From: a bacterium HR30
GTDB lineage: Bacteria; Desulfobacterota; Binatia; HRBIN30
Length of the DNA: 64,000 nucleotides
Reading direction: 5' to 3'
Assembly: GCA_002898795.1 (NCBI GenBank)
Contig: BEIG01000001.1
Coordinates: 192-64,191, forward strand
Below are positions 49,067 through 64,000 of the stretch, one piece after another (positions within the stretch are counted from its first letter, which is position 1; each line of letters starts with the position of its first letter). A program made the position numbers and the translations under genes. Below the pieces are notes generated by a model that was not told the DNA's origin, made no database searches, and was given only the letters and a program-made list of their open reading frames with translations.

Positions 49067-49756
49067 ATGAGCGAGCCGTGGTCGCGACGTTCCGTACTCA
49101 AACTCGGGGCTGCCGCTGCCGTAACCTTTTGGGTACGCCGTGCCTCGGGGGAAACCGCACCCTTTGCCCTACCTCCCCTCCCCTGGGAGGAGAACGCCTT
49201 AGCCCCGACCATCTCGGCGCAGACGATTTCGTTCCACTACGGCAAGCACCACCGGGCCTATGTGGAGAACTTGAACAAACTGGTCGCGGGTACCGAGTTC
49301 GCCGACTTACCCCTCGAACGGGTCGTGCAGCAAACAGTGGGAAAGCCTGAGAAGGTGGCCATCTTCAATAACGCGGCGCAAGCTTGGAACCACACATTTT
49401 ACTGGCGGAGCTTGAGCCCGAAAGGTGGGGGCAAACCAACCGGAAAACTTCTGGAACAAATCGAGCAAGACTTTGGCGGATTCGACCAGTTCCGCGCAAA
49501 GTTTGCGCAAGCCGCTGTCGGCCAGTTTGGCAGCGGGTGGGCTTGGCTGGTTAAAAGCAGCGGGCGCTTAGAAATTCTTGCCACGCCCAATGCCGACACG
49601 CCCATCACGATGGGGAAAACGCCGCTGCTCACCATCGACGTGTGGGAACATGCCTACTACCTGGACTACCAAAATCGACGCGGCGATTACGTGAACGCCG
49701 TGATCGACAAACTCCTCAACTGGGAATTTGCCACCCAGCAGTTCACGTCGGCTTAA
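49067..49756 (+). CDS. Fe/Mn superoxide dismutase with twin-arginine (Tat) signal peptide
   Basis: [14 protein letters not shown] Tat motif. HYGKHH and [18 protein letters not shown] signatures. GGGAGGTG RBS. Confidence 0.9.
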
Positions 49757-55037: not shown

Positions 55038-55790
55038 TCAGGAAATTACCAGGCCAGCGTCGACGGAGAGCACCGCGCCGTTGACGTATCTGGCCTCGTC
55101 CGACGCCAGATAAGCCACGGCTGCGGCCACCGCTGCGGGCGGGGCTTTTTCGTCGACCAACTTGAGGCGCGTAATCAAGTCGATCTCCGCACCGGCTGGA
55201 GGACGAAACCCAGCCAAGAACGGCGTGTCGATTCCCCCAGGGCACACGCAGTTTACCCGAACACCGCGCCGCGCGAATTCTACCGCTAGCGCTTTGGTAA
55301 GTTGCACCACGCCTCCTTTGGACGCACAGTATGCTGCGCTGTACGCTTGGCCGATCAAACCGGCTGACGATGCCATGTTCACAATGGCGCCGCAGCGGTC
55401 GAGCAACGCTGGCAGCGCTGCTTGGCACATAAAAAACGTGCCCGAGAGATTCACTGCCAGCGTACGATTCCACTCCTCCACGCTCACATCCAAAGTGTGC
55501 TGAAAGCGGCCCACGCCAGCGATGTTGGCCAGTACGTCGAGGGCGCCGAAATGGTCCAAGCACGATTGCACACTCTGCCGCGCGCAGTCCGGTCGGCTAA
55601 CGTCGCACCACTCGGCGTGTACCACGCCACCCTGCTCCCGGATCACCGCCACCGTTTCCGCGAGTCCAACTTCGTTGACGTCGGTGCAAAAAACCTTGGC
55701 TCCCTCGGCCGCTAAGCGCTCGGCTGTGGCGCGGCCGATGCCCGAGGCAGCGCCCGTAATCAAGGCTACCTTGTCGCGAAATCGTTCCAT
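55038..55790 (-). CDS. SDR-family oxidoreductase (3-oxoacyl-ACP reductase-like)
   Basis: TGAASGIGRATA, NIAG, and YxxxK (YCASK). GGAGG RBS. Confidence 0.85.
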   Translation of the reverse strand: MERFRDKVALITGAASGIGRATAERLAAEGAKVFCTDVNEVGLAETVAVIREQGGVVHAEWCDVSRPDCARQSVQSCLDHFGALDVLANIAGVGRFQHTLDVSVEEWNRTLAVNLSGTFFMCQAALPALLDRCGAIVNMASSAGLIGQAYSAAYCASKGGVVQLTKALAVEFARRGVRVNCVCPGGIDTPFLAGFRPPAGAEIDLITRLKLVDEKAPPAAVAAAVAYLASDEARYVNGAVLSVDAGLVIS

Positions 55791-56278: not shown

Positions 56279-57613
56279 CTAGGGCGTCGGGCTCGCACTC
56301 GCTTCCGGCGAGTCGTGCAGCGCCCTTCGATCGGTGCTTGGCGCTCTGGGGTTGCTTTCGTCCGCGCTCTTCCCCCCACCCGCGGGTTTTCCAGAAGGCC
56401 CGAACTCCTGAAACAGCTTCACCACCAGCGACGCTACCTCCCCCGGCTTGGCCGTGAGCACCTCCCGCCTCAATTGCTCGAAGCGGCGCGGCGACAAACG
56501 ATGGGCCAGCTCTATCCGAGCTCTCAAATCCCGAACGGTGTCGTCTCTTACGAACCTCACAAACTCGAGTTCCTTTTCGCTCATCTCGCCCAACTTGGGG
56601 CCATACAACCGAGCAAGGTCGAAGTACGTGTCGTAATCGGCGTAGAATTTCGCTTTGATGAGCAACCACACTAGCTCATTTTCCGGATCGGCCAGCAGAT
56701 TCCGCCACGCCCTGCTGCAAGCCTGATCCCCAGGTTCCTCGCCAAAACAACGGGCAGCCATGTAATAGGACAACGCTAACGGAGCCGCCAGGTGGGGGCT
56801 ACGTCTTTCCACTTCTCTTGTAAAGGCGTCCCGAAACGCTCCGCACTTTTCTACGGTGCTGTCAGCAAGGCAAGAGGCTAACTTTTCGCCCACTTCAGGG
56901 CCAAGCTCGCTCAACGATCCTCTGGGAATTCGCAAGCTAAAGGGGCGCGGGGTTAGAGCTTGCCCGTTCTCGACCCAGGCCTTCCTTGCCATGTCGGCCC
57001 AGACTACCTGTTCGCGAAGCAACTCCACAAGTCCCGGGTCGCCATGTTCTTTCGCCTCTTCCCATTGGCGCACCGTTTCGTTCTGCAAGAGTTCGAACCG
57101 TTCGGGGTCCAGGCGGGCCGCAACCTCGAAGACGTACCTAGCTCTCACCGGGTCATTACCGCCCACCTGCGCCCGCCGCACCGCCCGGAGGTAGCTCCAA
57201 AAGATCTCCGTTTGCCGCTTCTTCAAAAGAGCCAAGTAACGTTCCCCCATCTGTCTTAGCTTGTCCTTCCAAACCTCTTGCTCCTTCATATCCCATTCGG
57301 GTGGGCTGTCGAAAAAGGGGTAATGATAGATGGCTCGCTGGATGGCATCGTAATGGTCCAAGGCACAATACGGGAAGAGCGCCCCGGAGCGCGTGCACAT
57401 TTCGAACTGGAGCCGGTACACCACCAGTGCCGAAACAAAGCCATAGCCGGACAGTCCATGGAGCGGGCGCTCCTGCAGCGGCTTTTTCAGCCATCGTTCG
57501 AGGAGCTTCACGGAGAAGTCAACGCTGGAATCATCGCTCGCCCCACCTCGTTGAGGACCGCCCGCAAGTCCTGCAACCGCTACCAGCAACAGGGGCAAAA
57601 GCAAGCGCCTCAT
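56279..57613 (-). CDS. Secreted hypothetical protein
   Basis: Signal peptide MRRLLLPLLLVAVAGLAGG and a strong AGGAGGTG RBS. No known domain. Confidence 0.55.
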   Translation of the reverse strand: MRRLLLPLLLVAVAGLAGGPQRGGASDDSSVDFSVKLLERWLKKPLQERPLHGLSGYGFVSALVVYRLQFEMCTRSGALFPYCALDHYDAIQRAIYHYPFFDSPPEWDMKEQEVWKDKLRQMGERYLALLKKRQTEIFWSYLRAVRRAQVGGNDPVRARYVFEVAARLDPERFELLQNETVRQWEEAKEHGDPGLVELLREQVVWADMARKAWVENGQALTPRPFSLRIPRGSLSELGPEVGEKLASCLADSTVEKCGAFRDAFTREVERRSPHLAAPLALSYYMAARCFGEEPGDQACSRAWRNLLADPENELVWLLIKAKFYADYDTYFDLARLYGPKLGEMSEKELEFVRFVRDDTVRDLRARIELAHRLSPRRFEQLRREVLTAKPGEVASLVVKLFQEFGPSGKPAGGGKSADESNPRAPSTDRRALHDSPEASASPTP

Positions 57614-57675
57614 TGTCGTGTGCACCTCCTGGAGACTACCACACTCCCTCGTCACTGCGCATAGTACAACTGCAC

Positions 57676-58083
57676 CTAGTCCCACCGGCAACCAGGGCAC
57701 TCAGCACGCGTACCCTTCAGCACCCATTTCGGCACCCACGTCTTCCCATATGGCGGGCCCCAATCGTATTTGAAATAGTCCGCCTCGTTGCCCGGGGCCG
57801 GCAGGGATGCCGCCGTCAAACTGCGCACCGATATAAAATGCGTCGGCCCTTTCGGGTTCCCGATACCCGTTCTCAGGAACTCCTCGGCCAAGGCGAAATC
57901 CTCCGCGGTCGGAACGAGCTTCGGGTTCGGGCTCCTGCAGCCAACGTAAGCGCTGCACACATCCGCTACACTGGTAGTTCCCCTCCGTGCCATGCGGTTG
58001 AGCACCGTTTGCAAGATCGCTCGCCGCTCCTCCGCGCGGCACTGCTGCGAGCCACATTCGTTGGCCAGCAACCTCCCCAACAT
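57676..58083 (-). CDS. Putative cell-wall hydrolase (SleB/CwlJ Hydrolase_2-like)
   Basis: AILQTVLNRM and GPTHF resemble the Hydrolase_2 LNR and GATHY motifs. Weak support. Confidence 0.45.
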   Translation of the reverse strand: MLGRLLANECGSQQCRAEERRAILQTVLNRMARRGTTSVADVCSAYVGCRSPNPKLVPTAEDFALAEEFLRTGIGNPKGPTHFISVRSLTAASLPAPGNEADYFKYDWGPPYGKTWVPKWVLKGTRAECPGCRWD

Positions 58084-58440
58084 TTTTTCTCGTCCGTGTC
58101 CAACCCCGTCCCGGGCGACGCATCGCTCATCGTATCCGTGCGCTGCGCCACCTCCATTGCAGCGGAACCAAGGCATTATGTGCCAGCGCGCTAGCAGCCC
58201 GGCGACGGCGGGAATCGCTACATCCTAACGCGTCTTCCCACCGCCACCCTCTGCCTGCGCTCGGTCTTTGCTCGCTGGAGCGCCCCGGGGAGTAGCGTCG
58301 TCTCCACCAGGCCCCTCCGAGCCTCCACCCTCCCACCCAACACCCAACTCGGAAAACTCTCTCCCCCGCCGCCGCTCGGTCAAGGCATCAACACAGGCCC
58401 ACCTACCTCCAACAGCCGGTAGCCCAAGGCGCGGGCCTAC

Positions 58441-59060
58441 CTAGCTAGTCGGGGTCGGAGAAGGCTCGGGCCCACCGAGCCGGAACGGCGGGTAGCCCAA
58501 GGCGCGCTTGATTTCCTCCCACTCCACCAACTTCAGACGACCTCGAGCGTCGATAAAAAGGTACCCCGTGTCCCCACGACAGGGACCTACCGTGCCAAGC
58601 CTGTAGTACATCTCTCGCTGCAGCGTCTTGGGTCCCTCCAGCACCTCGTACCCTTTCGGAGCTTCCCCCTCCAGCACAAACTCGCCGCCCCACCCCGGAC
58701 GGTACCGTAACCGCACGGTGCTGGCAAAAAAAACCGGCCTGACCTTTCTGATCTGAGGCGCAGCACCGTACTCGTGTTTGCGGTATGCAAAGGCTCGGGA
58801 TGGGGATCGGCCGGGTCGTATGGGTAGAACATCAAAACCGAAAGGCCCGACGGGCGGGCATCTTCCCAGAGCTTGCGAACGCCCCTCACCTCCAGCACGA
58901 TCGTCAGGTCGTCGAGCTGCTTCACCGTGCAGTAGTAGGGAGGGATGCAACTCCCCACCGGCAACAGCACCGCCAAAAGCAACCCTACGAGCCCGAGGTG
59001 CCCACGCTTACCACGGTTACGGTCCAGCCACACGGCGAAACTCCCAGTACAACCGTTCAA
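58441..59060 (-). pseudogene. Lipoprotein gene split into two frames at an A8/T8 homopolymer (frameshifted or phase-variable)
   Basis: The N-terminal frame (lipobox LLPVGSC) runs from 59060 to about 58740. The C-terminal frame runs from about 58735 to 58441. The two frames meet at the T8 tract (plus-strand A8 at 58726-58733). Peptide repeats STVLRLRSERSGRFF and STVRLRYRPGWGGEF flank the tract. Confidence 0.5.
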
Positions 59061-59349
59061 TCGTACGCGCGTCTAGCCCGGTCTCTCGGTCCAAGAATGG
59101 CGCGCGCTTTAACACGAAATAATCCCCCACCACGGCAGCTTGCTGTTCGAAGTTGAGATCCCAAAAACTTCCGCGGAACGATGGCCCAACGACGTAGGGA
59201 TCGCTCCCCGTCAACCACGCCCTGAGGTGCAGCCAGGAGCCGCGGAAGTTGTCGAGCAAGCCGTGCTGTCGCTGCCAAATGTACACGCCCTCGTGCACGA
59301 GTAAACTCAAGCGTCGTACCGGCGTCCGCCCTGAGTATTCCGACGTCAC
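59017..59349 (-). CDS. Doubtful small ORF (GTG start, no RBS)
   Basis: Open frame only. It overlaps the lipoprotein start, and the tandem repeats abut its start codon. Confidence 0.2.
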   Translation of the reverse strand: MTSEYSGRTPVRRLSLLVHEGVYIWQRQHGLLDNFRGSWLHLRAWLTGSDPYVVGPSFRGSFWDLNFEQQAAVVGDYFVLKRAPFLDRETGLDARTIERLYWEFRRVAGP

Positions 59350-59350
59350 A

Positions 59351-59382
59351 TTGATTTCGTAATTTGTTGATTTCGTAATTTG
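59351..59382. repeat. Exact 16-bp AT-rich tandem direct repeat, 2 copies (TTGATTTCGTAATTTG)
   Basis: Two perfect adjacent copies in a low-GC intergenic stretch upstream of the frameshifted lipoprotein gene. Confidence 0.85.
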
Positions 59383-59707
59383 ACCTCACCTGCCCGTCGG
59401 CAAATCTTTCGCCGAAGAAACCTTCGTCTAGCTTTACCCTTTCCCAATCGACACATTCCCCACGGATTCCTCTAGAGCTTTCCGCTCCTCTTCCGTCAGC
59501 GGCCGCGGCTTCGGATCAACCCCCTGCTGACACCTTTCTGGATCCCGCGCGGGGCAGTCGCCACCGGCTCTGCTTCCCAGCCTTGCCTCCACGGTGAAGT
59601 CTGCACGCGCTGCGCTCTGTGCTGTTACTCAAGAAATCTCTAGCGCGAAGACGCTTCCGTGCTGTCCCATCGTTTCGTTTACGGATTTCCCACCGGTGTG
59701 CCCGATC

Positions 59708-60103
59708 TCATCGGCCAAAGCGCCTCTGAACGATTGTGTAGTCCTTTAGGTCGATCGTGTAATGCACCCCTCCACCGAAGGTTAACGGCGTCCTCCCTTC
59801 AAAGATGTCGACTTCAACTTCGTCACCCTTTTTTCTGTAAAGCACACCATGGACCCGCGTCGCTAGCTCTGGAGCTGAGTAACCTCGGTCCCAATGCTTG
59901 TTCAACCGTTGGTAGTCCGTCATCGCCACCAGTAACGCAGCAGCGATTTGCGCCGAGAGAATGCCCGAGTCGCTCACGCGCTCTTCTAGCTGAGCTTGCG
60001 AGACCCGCGGATCCAGAAGCAACACAGCGAGCAGGGTGGTGCATAGGGTGATCACCCCCGCTAACCTTGCCAAGCACCTTCGACCGACTTCATATACCCT
60101 CAT
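59708..60103 (-). CDS. Small secreted or membrane-anchored hypothetical protein
   Basis: N-terminal hydrophobic segment LAGVITLCTTLLAVLLL. Confidence 0.45.
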   Translation of the reverse strand: MRVYEVGRRCLARLAGVITLCTTLLAVLLLDPRVSQAQLEERVSDSGILSAQIAAALLVAMTDYQRLNKHWDRGYSAPELATRVHGVLYRKKGDEVEVDIFEGRTPLTFGGGVHYTIDLKDYTIVQRRFGR

Positions 60104-60897
60104 CTGATCGGCACCCTCCCAACGTAGCGCCCCAGCGTGAACTTGGGCTCGGGCAGTTCACCTGCAGGATAAAACCGCAAATTTCCACCCGGGGTTCCAA
60201 GGTAAGACCCGAGAAAGCCTGGATACCTCGCTCCGAGCTGGTTCGTCGCCCACACATCCGCCGGGGAAAAATACTCGAAGCCCGTTCTTGCACCGTGAGT
60301 GTGCCAAACCGCTAAGGGCCGTGCACCCTCTGGGAGGAACGCCAGCGCATCGTAAGGCGATGGACCCGCGCACACGGCGGCTCCGCCACACGGAGCCCCG
60401 AGGACGCCGGTAGTCGAGGAAATGCCCTCAGGCCCTTCAAAGATGATTCCTAAGTATTCCGTGTCGCTTTGAACCGAGGGCGGGTTGTGCAAGGCAACAG
60501 CATCTCTAGCTACTTCATCGACCTTGGCCACAGTCGGATGATTGGGATCGATGAGGCTACCGCTGGAAGCAACATCCGTCCTGCGTCCTCCGCCCAACGT
60601 CACTTCGCCGTCCGCTCTGCCACCTCCGTTGCCCGGGCCTTTCTGCGCCTCCCGTGCCATTTCGCTGCCAACGCCGTTAGCACGGGTACCACGGGCACCA
60701 CGGCTGCCACCCGCAGTGAACACAGCTCCCGGAGAGAACGGTTCCCCGCGGGCGCGCCTGCGTTCACCGATCGCGCGTGCTTGCGGCCAAGCGTATGGAG
60801 TGCGGTAGCGGTGCTCCCGCAAGCCCGGCCGCAAGGCAGGGGCTGAAACGGGCCACAGGGGCATGGGTGGTACGAATGGGCGCGCGGTGCGTACCAT
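60100..60897 (-). CDS. Protein with a C-terminal JAB/MPN-like (DUF4329-type) domain and a Gly/Arg-rich N-terminal region
   Basis: C-terminal motif WHTHGARTGFEYFSPAD (H-x-H...S-x-x-D). The N-terminal 100 aa are low-complexity, so the true start is uncertain. Confidence 0.45.
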   Translation of the reverse strand: MVRTARPFVPPMPLWPVSAPALRPGLREHRYRTPYAWPQARAIGERRRARGEPFSPGAVFTAGGSRGARGTRANGVGSEMAREAQKGPGNGGGRADGEVTLGGGRRTDVASSGSLIDPNHPTVAKVDEVARDAVALHNPPSVQSDTEYLGIIFEGPEGISSTTGVLGAPCGGAAVCAGPSPYDALAFLPEGARPLAVWHTHGARTGFEYFSPADVWATNQLGARYPGFLGSYLGTPGGNLRFYPAGELPEPKFTLGRYVGRVPIR

Positions 60898-61097: not shown

Positions 61098-62180
61098 CTA
61101 CCGGCCGTTGGCGCCGCGCTCCGCTAGCGCTGCATCGTCGGGTTTAGCGTGCTGCGGCGTCGCCTCACTCCCTCTGGGCCCATTCCCCCTTCTCTCCACC
61201 TTCGCACTCCCTGTGCCTGCAGTACGCCTCTTTCTCTTGTGCTGCTCCTCCTCTCCCAACAAAATCTCCCGCTCGATACCTCGCGCCCGGATCTGCTTGA
61301 TCTCGTACGCCTTGGCTTCCGCGTTCTCTGAAGGGGTGTATCCGGTTCCGTAGGTTGCTCGAGGCGTGACAAAGTATCCGTGTTCGTCCGTCTGGTACCG
61401 CTCCTCTTCTCGCTGTGGATCTTCGTCGTACTGGCATAACCACCAGCAGTGCAAGTTGACCTCGAGGATCTCGAAAGGGTCCTTCACCAGCACCCTCGTG
61501 CTGTCCTGGTCCACATTGAAGTCCTCGATCACGACGCGAACCTTGTTCGGATAATACCGCTTCTCCCCACGCCTCGCGCTCAATTCGTTAATCCTGACGC
61601 ACCAGTTCCGCACCGACAGCACAACCCTCTCCACCATCCACTCCTTTTCCGGCGACGGCGGATCGATCGGCGGCTCCTCGCGCGTGCAACGCCAAGGCAC
61701 CCTCACCGTGAACGACACCTTCTCCCGGCCCTGCAGTAAGCTGTAAGATTTTCGATAGAGTTTGTCCCTATCATCGCTAAGCCCCTCCAGAAGATGCGCG
61801 GCCACAAGGGCGTGCCCACGCCACACGACTAGGTAGTAATACCTATCCTCCAGCTCGCCCGGCCTGCACGTTCCAAGGCAGGGTCCGCAGATTGCCGCGT
61901 AACGCACGCGCGCATAGAACACACCCACCCTCGCAGGATCCTCCACCGCCTCCGCCACCAGCGGCACGCCGACACGGATAAGGTCGCACGGGGGGGAGCC
62001 TCCAACCCACCGCGCCTCCCGACAAAGGTCACGTTCCAGAGCGCTGCGCAACAGCGGCACATGCTGCTCTAACCGCCCAAGCTCTGCCCCAACAACCATT
62101 GCCGGCCACGCCCCGAGCCACCACGCCAGTAACCCCACTACGGCCAGGTGCTTGCTGCCCGTTCTGCTCGGAGACATCAT
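61098..62180 (-). CDS. Secreted hypothetical protein
   Basis: Signal peptide LAVVGLLAWWLGAWPAMVVGA and a charged C-terminal tail. Confidence 0.5.
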   Translation of the reverse strand: MMSPSRTGSKHLAVVGLLAWWLGAWPAMVVGAELGRLEQHVPLLRSALERDLCREARWVGGSPPCDLIRVGVPLVAEAVEDPARVGVFYARVRYAAICGPCLGTCRPGELEDRYYYLVVWRGHALVAAHLLEGLSDDRDKLYRKSYSLLQGREKVSFTVRVPWRCTREEPPIDPPSPEKEWMVERVVLSVRNWCVRINELSARRGEKRYYPNKVRVVIEDFNVDQDSTRVLVKDPFEILEVNLHCWWLCQYDEDPQREEERYQTDEHGYFVTPRATYGTGYTPSENAEAKAYEIKQIRARGIEREILLGEEEQHKRKRRTAGTGSAKVERRGNGPRGSEATPQHAKPDDAALAERGANGR

Positions 62181-62487
62181 CTCAGCCTCCCAGCAAAGAA
62201 GTCGTGCGCGAACCCCTTGTCAACCGGAACTTTTACCAGCTTCCCAGCGTCTAACGCCCTCTGCCATGATGGCGGTAGGGGTTGTGTCTTGAGGTTAAAA
62301 AACACCGCCTTCTGCGTACAACACACGCTCGTGCTCTGCCCCCTCGACACCTCCAACCATGCTAGAAGACTCTGCTGGTAGCCCTTTCGGATCGTCGGAT
62401 CGGTGCCGATGAAGTTTCCACGAGAGCGGCGGTGTTCGTTCCACGGTCTGTTACCCTCACGCCCCAACGCGCCACTGCGTGCACCCC

Positions 62488-63189
62488 TCATCCCTCGCGT
62501 ACGCTCTGAACGTGTTGCCGGGTCCCGCAAGGCACCTGGCGCAGCCTCTCGAGGTCTCCCTCCCATTCCAACTTCGTCTCCTCGGAATACTTGTCCACCG
62601 ATACCCGCAGCTTCACGGCGCCCTGTGCATCCGCGTACTCCCACTGAAAGACGTAGTACCAGTCCTCCTCCGCCACCTCCCCGCCACCAGGGCGCATCTG
62701 CGACGCCAGATAACGCTGCGTAACAACACCCCAGTCTTCCTCCGGCACCAACTTCGGCCCCTGAAATGCATCCGGGTTGAAGCAAAGCCGCCTGGCCGAT
62801 CGCTTGAGCTCCAAGATCGCCCGTTGCAAAGCTCGCCCCGGGCTGCATGGCCGCGGGTATCGTGACACTCTCCAAAGACTTCCCTCGTGCGCAAAATCCA
62901 CTTCTCGATAGTAGCGGTCCACCAACACCCAGAGCTTTACTCTCCCCCGCGGATCGGAGTACTCCCACTCGAACAAATACGCCCAGTCGCACTCCCGTGC
63001 CAATTTCGGCCCGCGAAATATGTTTAGGTCTACCGCGCGCTCCTCCGCCACTCGCCGCGCCTCCGCAATCGCTAGCTTCTCCGCTTCCGCTCTTGTGGCG
63101 GGGTAAAGAACGTAAAACAAAATGTTCAGCCAGCGAAAGCCTACGGCAAGGAAAAGGAACGCCGCGGCAATCTTCATCGCTCGCCACAT
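62488..63189 (-). CDS. Membrane-anchored or secreted protein with two internal FRGPKL...WEY-D modules (paralog A)
   Basis: N-terminal TM KIAAAFLFLAVGF. Two ~55-aa repeats: NIFRGPKLARECDWAYLFEWEYSDPRGRVKLWVLVD and AFQGPKLVPEED...YVFQWEYADAQGAVKLRVSVD. Confidence 0.6.
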   Translation of the reverse strand: MWRAMKIAAAFLFLAVGFRWLNILFYVLYPATRAEAEKLAIAEARRVAEERAVDLNIFRGPKLARECDWAYLFEWEYSDPRGRVKLWVLVDRYYREVDFAHEGSLWRVSRYPRPCSPGRALQRAILELKRSARRLCFNPDAFQGPKLVPEEDWGVVTQRYLASQMRPGGGEVAEEDWYYVFQWEYADAQGAVKLRVSVDKYSEETKLEWEGDLERLRQVPCGTRQHVQSVREG

Positions 63190-63358
63190 GGTCCCGAACC
63201 TCGCCCCGCCCCTGTTGGGCTTGCGCGCTCCTCGATCATCACGTCAGCAACTGACCCCACTGGCCAGCTTGGCACCCCTGACAGGCTAAGCCACCAGCCT
63301 TTCACCCAGACGCGCCCCACTCGTGCAACCCCTTCCCGATCGTTCGCTCTCAAGGGAT

Positions 63359-63960
63359 TCACCACGAGCTGCAGGGCACCCGGCGCAGCCTGTCGAGGTC
63401 TCCCTCCCATTCCACCGCGGTCTCCTCGGAGTACTTGTCCAGCGATAACCGCAGCTTCACGGCACCCTGTGCATCCACGTACTCCCACTGGAAAACGTAG
63501 TTCAAGTCGTCCTCTTCCACCAGCTTCGGCCCCCGAAATCTACGTGGATCGAAGGAAAGCCGCATCGCTGCCAGCTTGAAATGCACCCTTGCCAGCTCCT
63601 CCGCTCGTTCGAGCCAAACAGGCGGTATCCGTGTGAGTCTGTCCCAGTCGCCTGGGAACGAAGCCTCGGTCCACCGGTCTTTCTTGCCAACTAAAACTTG
63701 CAGCTCGGCTCTACCCCAGGTGTCCGAATACTCCCAAACGAACATGTAATTCTCGGGATCGTCCTGCACCAACTTGGGCCCGCGAAACATGCTTAGGTCA
63801 AATCCCCCCCCCAACCTGCCGCTCGATTTGCTTGGTCGATCGCTAGCTTCTCGGCTTCCTCCTTCGTAAGCGGGTAAAGGAAGTCGTGTACAGTGTTGAC
63901 CCCGTGAAAGGCTAGCCCAAGCAAAAGCAACACTGCCACAACCTTCATTGCCCGGCGCAT
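63359..63960 (-). pseudogene. Paralog B of the FRGPKL/WEY-D protein, interrupted by a G9 homopolymer frameshift
   Basis: N-terminal frame MRRAMKVVAVLLLLGLAF...AIDQANRAAGW. The G9 tract is plus-strand C9 at 63803-63811. The downstream frame reads GGFDLSMFRGPKLVQDD...YVFQWEYVDAQGAVKLRLSLD. Ten G would restore a single ORF. Confidence 0.55.
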
Positions 63961-64000
63961 AGTCTCGAACCTCACGGCGGCACAGGCACCGTGCCACGGA

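What the first reader, a model, noticed from the sequence alone, without database searches (positions are those of the whole stretch)
58441..59060. Lipoprotein gene split at an A8 homopolymer tract: phase-variable contingency gene, pseudogene, or homopolymer sequencing error
Seen in sequence: a frame with a good lipoprotein signal (LLPVGSC) runs from 59060 down to the T8 tract (plus-strand A8 at 58726-58733). A second frame with coding-like composition continues from the tract to 58441. The two halves share a duplicated peptide on either side of the tract (STVLRLRSERSGRFF and STVRLRYRPGWGGEF), which argues they belong to one protein. A one-nucleotide change in tract length would fuse them. An 8-nt A/T run is rare in this roughly 67% GC DNA.
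Basis: seen in the sequence. Interest (0 to 1): 0.5.

Follow-up and report, generated by a model that had tools for sequence, protein, structure and literature searches.

The report
Frameshifted immunity-like lipoprotein pseudogene
A small envelope-protein gene in a hot-spring bacterium is indeed broken in two, but by a 5-base tandem duplication just upstream of the A8/T8 run, not by the run itself. It sits in a decaying toxin–antidote-like gene pair, so it is an ordinary pseudogene and not a genetic switch.

Summary
The split is real. On the minus strand, a gene runs from GTG 59033 to TAG 58441, with a signal peptide and a loose lipobox (VGSC), and it changes frame. The A8/T8 run (58726-58733) is not the lesion.

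- **Tract:** two intact relatives with DNA (L002/L006 and L007) carry the same T8 in frame, as GTT TTT TTT = Val-Phe-Phe.
- **Closest relative:** P0007, known only as protein, reads LRLRKVRPVFFA.
- **Lesion:** the window has a 5-nt tandem duplication, TCAGA|TCAGA (58747-58756), 14 nt upstream of the run. Deleting one copy gives a 195-aa protein, 171 residues identical to P0007.
- **No tract variation:** T8 is the same in all five DNA copies. An A8 run is expected about twice per window by chance.
- **Not an assembly error:** the duplication appears in the MAG and in separate assemblies of two read sets.

The gene overlaps by 17 nt an upstream HExxH gene homologous to the P. aeruginosa VgrG2b metallopeptidase effector domain, whose cognate immunity proteins are envelope-targeted and sometimes lipoproteins. 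In the window that partner is also decayed: a 16-nt tandem duplication, a 1-nt deletion, HEGVH changed to HEGVY, and no leader.

Verdict: a fixed pseudogene in a leaderless orphan toxin/immunity-like cassette of a Binatia (bacterium HR30) genome. Interest is low.

The parts
58441..59033 (-). Whole disrupted gene: GTG start 59033-59031 to TAG stop 58443-58441. It is annotated in GenBank only as a 148-aa frameshifted product, HRbin30_00058 (59033-58587).
   Evidence: P0002 equals the window ORF from MWLD. Intact homologues P0006 (193 aa), P0007 (194 aa) and P0003 (185 aa) span both halves.
59041..59045 (-). Shine-Dalgarno-like GGGAG, 7 nt before the GTG start.
   Evidence: Read directly from the sequence. 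Conserved in L002.
58947..59033 (-). Signal peptide plus a loose lipobox (L-P-V-G-S-C; Cys29 codon at 58949-58947).
   Evidence: It fits the loose lipobox pattern and fails PS51257 (Pro at -4). The Cys is conserved in L002 and P0007 but not in P0003.
58747..58808 (-). Hypervariable segment of the gene. It is about 50% identical to L002, against about 93% in the flanks. The net length difference is +11 nt: a 5-nt duplication plus two extra codons.
   Evidence: alignment A2, columns 293-354; dS 0.43, dN 0.57 in this segment.
58747..58756 (-). The frameshifting lesion: a perfect 5-nt tandem duplication, TCAGA (58756-58752) and TCAGA (58751-58747).
   Evidence: Deleting one copy gives a 588-nt, 195-codon ORF with no stops, reading ...VLRLRKVRPVFFASTVRLRY. 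P0007 reads ...MLRLRKVRPVFFARTVRLRY. BLOSUM62 global scores are 911 for this repair against 875 (T9) and 874 (T6) versus P0007.
58726..58733 (-). T8 run (A8 on the plus strand). In the native frame it encodes Val-Phe-Phe (GTT TTT TTT). It is not the lesion.
   Evidence: The same T8 and flanks (AAGGTCAGGCCGGTTTTTTTTGCCAG) sit in frame in the intact genes of L002/L006 and L007. The length is the same in L001 and L005. Chance expectation is 1.96 per window.
58587..58589 (-). Premature stop reached in the N-terminal frame after 45 out-of-frame codons (54 codons after the duplication).
   Evidence: the P0002 tail ...FFLPAPCGYGTVRGG...TGLAR has no counterpart in the intact homologues.
58441..58746 (-). 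C-terminal two-fifths of the gene (KVRPVFFASTVRLRY...SPTPTS*), now out of frame with the start. It contains the best-conserved block of the family, FVLEGxxPKxYxVLEGPKxLQR.
59017..59592 (-). Upstream partner: a leaderless, multiply disrupted HExxH gene homologous to the VgrG2b C-terminal effector domain. Its stop overlaps the lipoprotein-like gene's start by 17 nt.
   Evidence: The intact homologue L007:416-1033 hits PDB 6h56 at E=4.6e-12, with the HExxH motif aligned. The 17-nt overlap is conserved in L002, L003, L004 and L007.
59351..59382 (-). Perfect 16-nt tandem duplication (CAAATTACGAAATCAA x2 on the minus strand), absent from L002. It frameshifts the HExxH gene.
59454..59455 (-). Site of a 1-nt deletion relative to L002 and L007, in the N-terminal part of the HExxH gene (...EESVGN|VDWERVKL).
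   Evidence: L007 reads ...EEFVGKSVDWERVKLDEG in one frame.
59281..59295 (-). Degenerate metal-binding motif HEGVY. TAC at 59283-59281 replaces CAC.
   Evidence: six homologues keep HExxH (HEGVH, HEGTH or HESAH). One search shows the single C-to-T change. The equivalent H939A mutation abolishes VgrG2b toxicity (PMC6899460).
59708..60897 (-). The preceding cassette: a DUF4329-domain protein (60100-60897) and a 131-aa protein (59708-60103). In L002, the N-terminal leader of the DUF4329 protein is the same leader that L007 fuses to the HExxH domain.
   Evidence: DUF4329, E=5.7e-11; shared leader ALAALGAYGLLRSLRAP.SGVASESQKEMQKGPG.

Best explanation
The locus is a lineage-specific pseudogene of a small envelope-targeted, lipoprotein-like protein in 'bacterium HR30' (Binatia, order HRBin30).

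**Shown**
- The reading frame is lost at a 5-nt tandem duplication, TCAGA|TCAGA (58747-58756). This kind of change is typical of replication slippage.
- The T8/A8 run 14 nt downstream has the ancestral, in-frame length and encodes Val-Phe-Phe.
- The partner gene has lost its leader and carries a 16-nt tandem duplication, a 1-nt deletion and a His-to-Tyr change in the zinc-binding motif.

**Inferred**
- The gene is the downstream, translationally coupled partner (17-nt overlap) of an HExxH protein homologous to the VgrG2b/Tpe1 periplasmic metallopeptidase toxin domain. It is therefore most likely that toxin's envelope-located immunity protein.
- In this genome the pair is a leaderless 'orphan' cassette sitting behind a DUF4329 cassette, and it is decaying as a unit.
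- Translation from GTG 59033 would yield only a 148-aa product with a 45-residue nonsense tail, lacking the most conserved C-terminal block.
For: 1. The intact orthologue on L002/L006 (90% nt identity over 2286 nt, syntenic) and the one on L007 carry the identical T8 in frame.
2. P0007 (194 aa, the closest relative; 171 of 195 residues identical) reads LRLRKVRPVFFA. That is exactly the window minus one TCAGA.
3. BLOSUM62 global scores against P0007 and P0006 favour deleting TCAGA (911 and 707) over T9 (875 and 671) or T6 (874 and 670).
4. The same sequence, with both TCAGA copies and T8, is found in the MAG, in a Logan assembly of DRR101366 (L005, 100% over 1061 nt) and in one of SRR27730026 (L001, 100% over 1330 nt).
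5. The neighbouring gene carries independent inactivating lesions.
6. The HExxH partner is homologous to PDB 6h56, the VgrG2b effector domain (E=4.6e-12, motif aligned). It is also related to the C-termini of Vgr and PAAR proteins on plasmids.
7. Wood et al. 2019 (PMC6899460) show that this toxin family is followed by a small envelope-targeted immunity ORF. That ORF is a lipoprotein in some lineages and TM-anchored in others, and both His residues of HEXXH are needed for toxicity.
8. L007 fuses the HExxH domain to the leader that L002 uses for its DUF4329 protein, the kind of domain swapping seen in polymorphic toxins.
Against: - No raw reads could be inspected, so minority alleles cannot be excluded.
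- DNA for P0007 could not be retrieved. Its T8 and single TCAGA are inferred from the protein.
- The distant homologue P0003 reads KREGGRLYG at this spot. That fits the tract-frame reading (RSERSGRFF) slightly better than KVRPVFF (scores 329 for T6 and 320 for T9, against 318). An older compensated frameshift involving the tract is therefore not excluded.
- The immunity role is inferred only from gene order, the overlap and envelope targeting. There is no Pfam, NCBIfam or PDB match and no detectable homology to a putative immunity ORF behind a B. thailandensis Vgr. The AF2 model is unusable (pLDDT 43).
- dN/dS is about 1.3 in both halves. This cannot separate diversifying selection from relaxed selection.
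Confidence: 0.82

Rival explanations
1. Phase-variable contingency gene. Slipped-strand changes in the A8/T8 tract length switch the lipoprotein on (T9 or T6) and off (T8).
For: T9 or T6 would join the frames without stops. The tract is the longest A/T run in the window. The distant homologue P0003 fits the tract-frame reading marginally better.
Against: T8 is in frame in the intact genes on L002/L006 and L007. The length is 8 in all five DNA copies from three lineages and at least three samples. An A8 run is expected by chance 1.96 times per window. A T9 product would replace the conserved KVRPVFF with SERSGRFFF. The partner gene is independently decayed.
Confidence: 0.04
2. A sequencing or assembly artefact, either a homopolymer miscount at A8 or a spurious 5-nt duplication. 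The real gene would then be intact.
For: The window comes from a metagenome-assembled genome, and the reads could not be inspected.
Against: Eight is the correct in-frame tract length in relatives. The whole region, including TCAGA x2, is 100% identical in independent Logan assemblies of two different runs, DRR101366 and SRR27730026. A perfect 5-nt tandem duplication is not a typical base-calling error. A second perfect tandem duplication (16 nt) lies 600 nt away.
Confidence: 0.04
3. The lesion is real but partly bypassed. Transcriptional slippage on the A8 template run (U8 to U9), or -1 ribosomal slippage on U UUU UUG in the N-terminal frame, restores the C-terminal frame 14 nt after the duplication. 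The result would be a near-full-length protein with only about 7 residues altered.
For: The geometry is right. ORF1 to ORF2 needs -1 (equivalently +2) at the ribosome, or +1 nt in the mRNA. In the N-terminal frame the run reads CGG TTT TTT TTG, which contains an X XXY YYZ heptamer. From general knowledge, A/T runs of 8 or more are known slippage sites in other bacteria.
Against: There are no expression data. No stimulatory element was looked for or found, and Rfam gives nothing. The tract predates the lesion, since it is present in intact relatives, so it is not an adaptation to it. The toxin partner is dead, so there is no obvious selection for rescue.
Confidence: 0.05
4. The truncated 148-aa product (signal peptide, about 70 native mature residues and a nonsense tail), or an internally initiated C-terminal fragment, is itself functional. 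This would make it a split gene and not a pseudogene.
For: Both frames remain free of stops over the native coding sequence. Gene callers predict both pieces (P0002, P0004).
Against: The most conserved block of the family (FVLEGxxPKxYxVLEGPKxLQR) lies in the C-terminal part, which would lack a signal peptide. Long open frames are common in DNA of this GC content (one search lists many overlapping ORFs). All other family members are single ORFs.
Confidence: 0.05

Closest known systems
VgrG2b C-terminal metallopeptidase / PA0261 (the Tpe-Tpi family) effector-immunity pairs of type VI secretion (Wood et al. 2019, PMC6899460; PDB 6h56)
   Same: The upstream partner is a sequence homologue of the VgrG2b effector domain, with the HExxH motif and the downstream NxEQQxxVxDYF block aligned. 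As in that family, a small ORF follows and overlaps the toxin gene. Its product is sent to the cell envelope by a lipobox in some members and by a plain signal or TM segment in others.
   Different: The lipoprotein-like family shows no detectable sequence similarity to anything known (Pfam, NCBIfam, PDB), nor to the putative immunity ORF behind a B. thailandensis Vgr. The toxin domain is not fused to VgrG, PAAR or Rhs here. In L007 it follows a short hydrophobic leader. No T6SS genes were recognised nearby in the window. In the window both genes are inactivated.
Orphan toxin/immunity cassettes downstream of polymorphic toxin genes (as described for CDI and Rhs loci; from general knowledge)
   Same: It is a leaderless toxin C-terminal module plus its downstream partner, lying behind another toxin-like gene (DUF4329) and its small partner. 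The same leader is joined to different C-terminal domains in related contigs. Lesions have accumulated.
   Different: No CdiA, Rhs or other delivery domain was identified. The toxic activity of either domain is untested. The family is known from only a handful of hot-spring metagenome contigs.
Homopolymer-tract phase-variable surface or lipoprotein genes (contingency loci of Neisseria, Haemophilus, Campylobacter, Mycoplasma; from general knowledge)
   Same: A mononucleotide run of 8 lies inside the 5' half of a gene for an envelope protein. A change in run length would alter the frame.
   Different: The tract has the in-frame length in intact relatives and shows no length variation among five copies. 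It is not the site of the frameshift and is no more frequent than chance.

Membership tests
Phase-variable contingency gene (homopolymer switch) | The frame is lost or restored at the repeat tract itself. | tested here: not met
   T8 is in frame in the intact orthologues. The frame is lost at TCAGA x2, 14 nt upstream.
Phase-variable contingency gene (homopolymer switch) | Tract length varies among strains, samples or reads. | tested here: not met
   The length is 8 in the window, L001, L005, L002/L006 and L007. Read-level heterogeneity cannot be tested with these tools.
Phase-variable contingency gene (homopolymer switch) | The tract is over-represented relative to composition. | tested here: not met
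   One A8/T8 is observed against 1.96 expected, and 76 of 100 shuffles have at least one.
Bacterial lipoprotein (Lgt/LspA substrate) | An N-terminal signal peptide ending in a lipobox with an invariant Cys. | tested here: inconclusive
   VGSC (window, P0007) and LGSC (L002) fit a loose lipobox, but they fail the PS51257 core because of Pro at -4. P0003 has Trp in place of the Cys. No dedicated predictor was available.
VgrG2b C-ter / Tpe1-like metallopeptidase toxin domain (the upstream partner gene) | Sequence homology to the solved effector domain, including HExxH. | tested here: met
   The family member L007:416-1033 hits 6h56_A at E=4.6e-12, with residues 20-177 aligned to 72-232 and HEGVH aligned to HEMTH. 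The window copy itself has HEGVY and frameshifts.
VgrG2b C-ter / Tpe1-like metallopeptidase toxin domain (the upstream partner gene) | Pfam DUF4157 signature, which the paper says often annotates this family. | tested here: not met
   No DUF4157 hit at E<=10 for the reconstructed window protein, the L002 protein, the L007 protein or the L003 protein. There is only a sub-threshold DUF6782 'putative metallopeptidase' hit.
VgrG2b C-ter / Tpe1-like metallopeptidase toxin domain (the upstream partner gene) | Delivery by T6SS (fusion to VgrG, PAAR or Rhs, or a T6SS locus nearby). | tested here: not met
   No such domains were found in the ORFs scanned between 49 and 64 kb. The L007 version has only a short hydrophobic leader. 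Plasmid relatives are Vgr or PAAR fusions.
PA0261/Tpi immunity family | A small ORF immediately downstream of, or overlapping, the toxin gene, with its product targeted to the envelope. | tested here: met
   The 17-nt overlap is conserved in the window, L002, L003, L004 and L007. A signal peptide is present in all members.
PA0261/Tpi immunity family | Sequence homology to PA0261 or its orthologues. | tested here: inconclusive
There is no similarity (hhalign probability 0.4%) to the ORF in the equivalent position behind a B. thailandensis Vgr-metallopeptidase. The PDB profile search found nothing.
PA0261/Tpi immunity family | Neutralises the cognate toxin. | not testable with these tools
   This needs co-expression in the periplasm, as in PMC6899460.
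Pseudogene | A disrupted frame relative to intact orthologues, reproducible in independent data. | tested here: met

The most novel reading that the evidence does not exclude
The lipoprotein-like family is known from only four protein clusters among 5.8 billion, all from geothermal Binatia-type contigs. It may be a previously undescribed immunity family for VgrG2b/Tpe-like metallopeptidase toxins. In these bacteria the toxins would be exchanged as cassettes on a short hydrophobic leader instead of on VgrG, PAAR or Rhs, implying a delivery route other than the known T6SS spike fusions. A further possibility is that the T8 run 14 nt after the lesion lets transcriptional or ribosomal slippage rescue some full-length protein.
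Probability: 0.3. Interest if true: 0.4.

Novelty: new member of a known kind. Interest (0 to 1): 0.15.

Why it matters
It matters mainly as a correction. A conspicuous homopolymer next to a frame break is not necessarily the cause. Here, comparison with intact relatives moves the lesion 14 nt upstream to a 5-nt tandem duplication, which removes the phase-variation reading. It also adds some context: an uncultured hot-spring Binatia genome carries decaying cassettes of a toxin domain so far characterised in Pseudomonas and Acinetobacter T6SS, paired with an unrelated envelope protein. For annotation, HRbin30_00058 should be flagged as a frameshifted pseudogene, and the region upstream as a disrupted HExxH gene.

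Tried and rejected
- **Tract repair.** That query found the homologues, but their alignment showed KVRPVFF read through T8.
- **Ancestral state reversed.** I considered the opposite history: TCAGA x2 with T6 or T9 as ancestral, and L002 compensated by a deletion. The reason was that P0003's GGC CGT CTT TAT shares codon phase with the window's N-terminal frame. I rejected it as the recent history because the window's closest relative P0007 and the more distant L002 both have the single-copy reading. An ancient event of this kind stays open.
- **Family searches for the split protein.** Pfam, NCBIfam and PDB sequence searches found nothing.
- **Structure.** The AlphaFold2 model built on a 3-sequence alignment had pLDDT 43, so no fold search was run.
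- **Collection scans.** Two scans of GTDB species representatives and one viral scan found no relatives. The exhaustive 1.8-billion-representative search found only the same small family.
- **P0007 DNA.** Look-up failed.
- **dN/dS.** The N and C halves do not differ (1.75 against 1.26, based on few changes), so this gives no dating of the inactivation.
- **RNA and signal scans.** Rfam and the promoter/terminator scans of the region gave nothing informative.
- **Sample origin.** A literature search for the run accessions gave no information on the samples.

Full report
**1. What is in the sequence**

All of this is on the minus strand.

- An ORF runs from 59060 (TTG) to a stop at 58587. Its likely start is GTG 59033, preceded by GGGAG at a 7-nt spacing.
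- A second frame is open from 58950 to the stop at 58441.
- The plus-strand A8 lies at 58726-58733 and is the longest A/T run in the window.
- The N-terminus is MWLDRNRGKRGHLGLVGLLLAVLLPVGSC. It has a charged n-region and a hydrophobic core. Its VGSC fits a loose lipobox but fails the PROSITE core because of Pro at -4.
- The window is 60.8% GC and the finding's interval is 61.8% GC, not 67%.
- Dinucleotide-preserving shuffles give 1.96 A8/T8 runs per window, and 76 of 100 shuffles have at least one. The tract is therefore not a statistical anomaly.

**2. Source organism**

The 148-aa N-terminal-frame product is identical to GenBank 'hypothetical protein HRbin30_00058 [bacterium HR30]' (P0002). 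HRBin30 names an order of the uncultured phylum Binatota that has been recovered from thermal springs (PMC8262859). Homologues of the neighbouring gene are annotated 'Candidatus Binatia bacterium'.

**3. The two halves are one gene**

The family is tiny. There are four clusters among 5.8 billion proteins, nothing further in an exhaustive search of 1.8 billion representatives, and no relatives in the GTDB species representatives or viral contigs. Three intact full-length members span the junction:

| Member | Length | Source | Identity to the repaired window protein |
|---|---|---|---|
| P0001/P0006 | 193 aa from the conserved GTG | contig L002 = L006, LJSS01001678.1 | 74% |
| P0007 | 194 aa | NCBI and Logan | 88% |
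| P0003 | 185 aa | L003, L004 | 41% |

A further intact copy lies on L007 (VAPR01017527.1).

**4. Where the frame is lost**

L002 is 90% identical to the window over 2286 nt and is syntenic.

- In the DNA alignment, the stretch AAGGTCAGGCCGGTTTTTTTTGCCAG, including T8, is identical in the window and L002. L007 has the same T8.
- In those intact genes it is read AAG GTC AGG CCG GTT TTT TTT GCC = KVRPVFFA. This is the window's C-terminal frame, and it extends upstream of the tract.
- The frame change must therefore lie upstream of KVRP.
- There the window reads CTC AGA TCA GAA AGG TC, where L002 has CTC AGC AAG GTC. The window contains a perfect tandem duplication, TCAGA|TCAGA (58756-58752 and 58751-58747).
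- Removing one copy yields a 588-nt ORF with no stops, reading ...TSTVLRLRKVRPVFFASTVRLRYRPGWGGEF....
- P0007 reads ...TTMLRLRKVRPVFFARTVRLRYRPGWGGEF....

Global BLOSUM62 scores for the three possible repairs:

| Repair | vs P0007 | vs P0006 | vs P0003 |
|---|---|---|---|
| Delete one TCAGA | 911 | 707 | 318 |
| T9 | 875 | 671 | 320 |
| T6 | 874 | 670 | 329 |

The duplication sits at the 3' edge of a roughly 60-nt hypervariable segment (58747-58808). In that segment the window also has two extra codons, giving a net +11 nt.

**5. A residual puzzle**

The distant homologue P0003 reads LHLKREGGRLYGRTVRL at this position. Its GGC CGT CTT TAT is in the same codon phase as the window's N-terminal frame, GGC CGG TTT TTT, and tract-based repairs score marginally better against it. 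This may reflect an old compensated frameshift in the HR30/L002 clade, or plain divergence in a variable loop. Because both the window's closest relative (P0007) and the more distant L002 share the single-copy reading, the recent event in the window lineage is most simply the 5-nt duplication.

**6. Real or artefact**

- A Logan contig from DRR101366 (L005, 1061 nt) and one from SRR27730026 (L001, 1330 nt) are each 100% identical to the window across the gene. Both include TCAGA x2 and T8.
- Tract length is 8 in all five DNA copies from three lineages.
- I could not inspect reads, and the literature search gave no metadata for these runs.
- A perfect 5-nt duplication reproduced in two read sets is unlikely to be an error. 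A homopolymer miscount is excluded as the cause, because 8 is the in-frame length.

**7. Context: the partner gene**

The gene's GTG overlaps by 17 nt the stop of an upstream ORF. This overlap is conserved in L002, L003, L004 and L007.

The full-length form of the upstream gene is on L007 (205 aa). It consists of a hydrophobic leader, a linker, then ...PRPLTDEERKALEEFVGKSVDWERVKLDEG...LLVHEGVHIWQRQHG...NFEQQANVVRDYF....

- It has no Pfam or NCBIfam family.
- It matches PDB 6h56, 'Effector domain of P. aeruginosa VgrG2b', at E=4.6e-12, with HEGVH aligned to HEMTH.
- It matches the C-termini of Vgr and PAAR proteins on plasmids.

Wood et al. 2019 (PMC6899460) report the following for that domain:

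- It is a periplasm-acting zinc metallopeptidase toxin.
- H935A, E936A and H939A abolish its toxicity.
- A small downstream ORF (PA0261) is its periplasmic immunity protein. Orthologues reach the envelope as lipoproteins in Enterobacteriaceae or through a TM helix in A. baylyi.

The split gene occupies that position and has that targeting: a lipobox in the HR30 and L002 clade, and a plain hydrophobic N-terminus in P0003. I therefore infer, but have not shown, that it is the cognate immunity gene. It has no detectable similarity to the equivalent ORF behind a B. thailandensis Vgr.

**8. The whole cassette is decaying in this genome**

Relative to L002 and L007, the window's HExxH gene shows four defects:

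- It lacks the leader.
- It has a 1-nt deletion at about 59454/59455.
- It has a perfect 16-nt tandem duplication at 59351-59382.
- It has HEGVY in place of the HEGVH, HEGTH or HESAH found in six homologues. The change is at the position equivalent to H939.

L002's copy is also leaderless and has a +1 insertion, but it keeps HEGVH and an intact partner gene.

In L002 the leader ALAALGAYGLLRSLRAP.SGVASESQKEMQKGPG heads the upstream DUF4329 protein. In L007 the same leader (98% nt identity over 105 nt) heads the HExxH domain. This is the C-terminal-domain swapping, with displaced 'orphan' modules, that is typical of polymorphic toxin loci (general knowledge).

dN/dS between the window and L002 is about 1.3-1.4 across the lipoprotein-like gene, against 0.76 for the 131-aa neighbour. 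This is compatible with an arms race or with relaxed selection, and it does not decide between them.

**9. Verdict**

The feature is an ordinary lineage-specific pseudogene. The only mildly new element is the family context, a VgrG2b-type metallopeptidase cassette with an unrelated envelope partner in Binatia. Untested possibilities are slippage-mediated rescue at T8 and a non-T6SS delivery route.

Noticed in passing
window 59351-59382: A perfect 16-nt tandem duplication (TTGATTTCGTAATTTG x2 on the plus strand) frameshifts the upstream HExxH gene. It is absent from L002. It is the second slippage-type duplication within 600 nt.
   Followed up: yes
window 59281-59295: The zinc-binding motif is HEGVY here, while six homologues keep HExxH. 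It is a single C-to-T change relative to L002, at the residue equivalent to VgrG2b H939, which is needed for toxicity.
   Followed up: yes
L007 1-1431 (VAPR01017527.1) compared with L002: L007 starts with the 3' end of another lipoprotein-like gene copy (identical to L002:2235-2423). It then carries the leader that L002 uses for its DUF4329 protein, fused directly to the HExxH domain. This suggests tandem cassettes and C-terminal-domain swapping.
   Followed up: partly
window 58396-58433 and 58469-58506: A 38-nt imperfect direct repeat (81.6%, spacing 73 nt) brackets the last ~22 codons and the stop of the gene. The distant homologue P0003 ends (…RALGYD*) inside the first copy, so the C-terminal tail PPFRLGGPEPSPTPTS may have arisen by a duplication or recombination junction.
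   Followed up: no
window 59708-60897: A DUF4329-domain protein (E=5.7e-11) is followed, with a 4-nt overlap, by a 131-aa protein with a hydrophobic N-terminus. This may be a second toxin/immunity-like pair. The window's DUF4329 ORF lacks the hydrophobic leader seen in L002 in the same frame.
   Followed up: partly
L002 about 1283-1290 (alignment A3, column 245): The 'intact' comparison contig has its own +1 insertion (GGAAAAC where the window has GGAAAGC). It separates the N-terminal RPLTxEERK segment from the rest of its HExxH gene, so the orphan toxin module is also damaged there, while its partner gene is intact.
   Followed up: partly
window 63804-63812: A C9 run is the longest homopolymer in the window. 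It was not examined.
   Followed up: no
window 56279-58176 and 61098-63997: The flanking minus-strand ORFs (473, 166, 360, 336 and 212 aa) have no Pfam hit, and the four of them also scanned against NCBIfam (473, 166, 360 and 336 aa) have no significant hit there either. The region looks like an island of orphan genes next to ordinary housekeeping genes, an SDR at 55038-55790 and SodA/B at 49067-49756.
   Followed up: no
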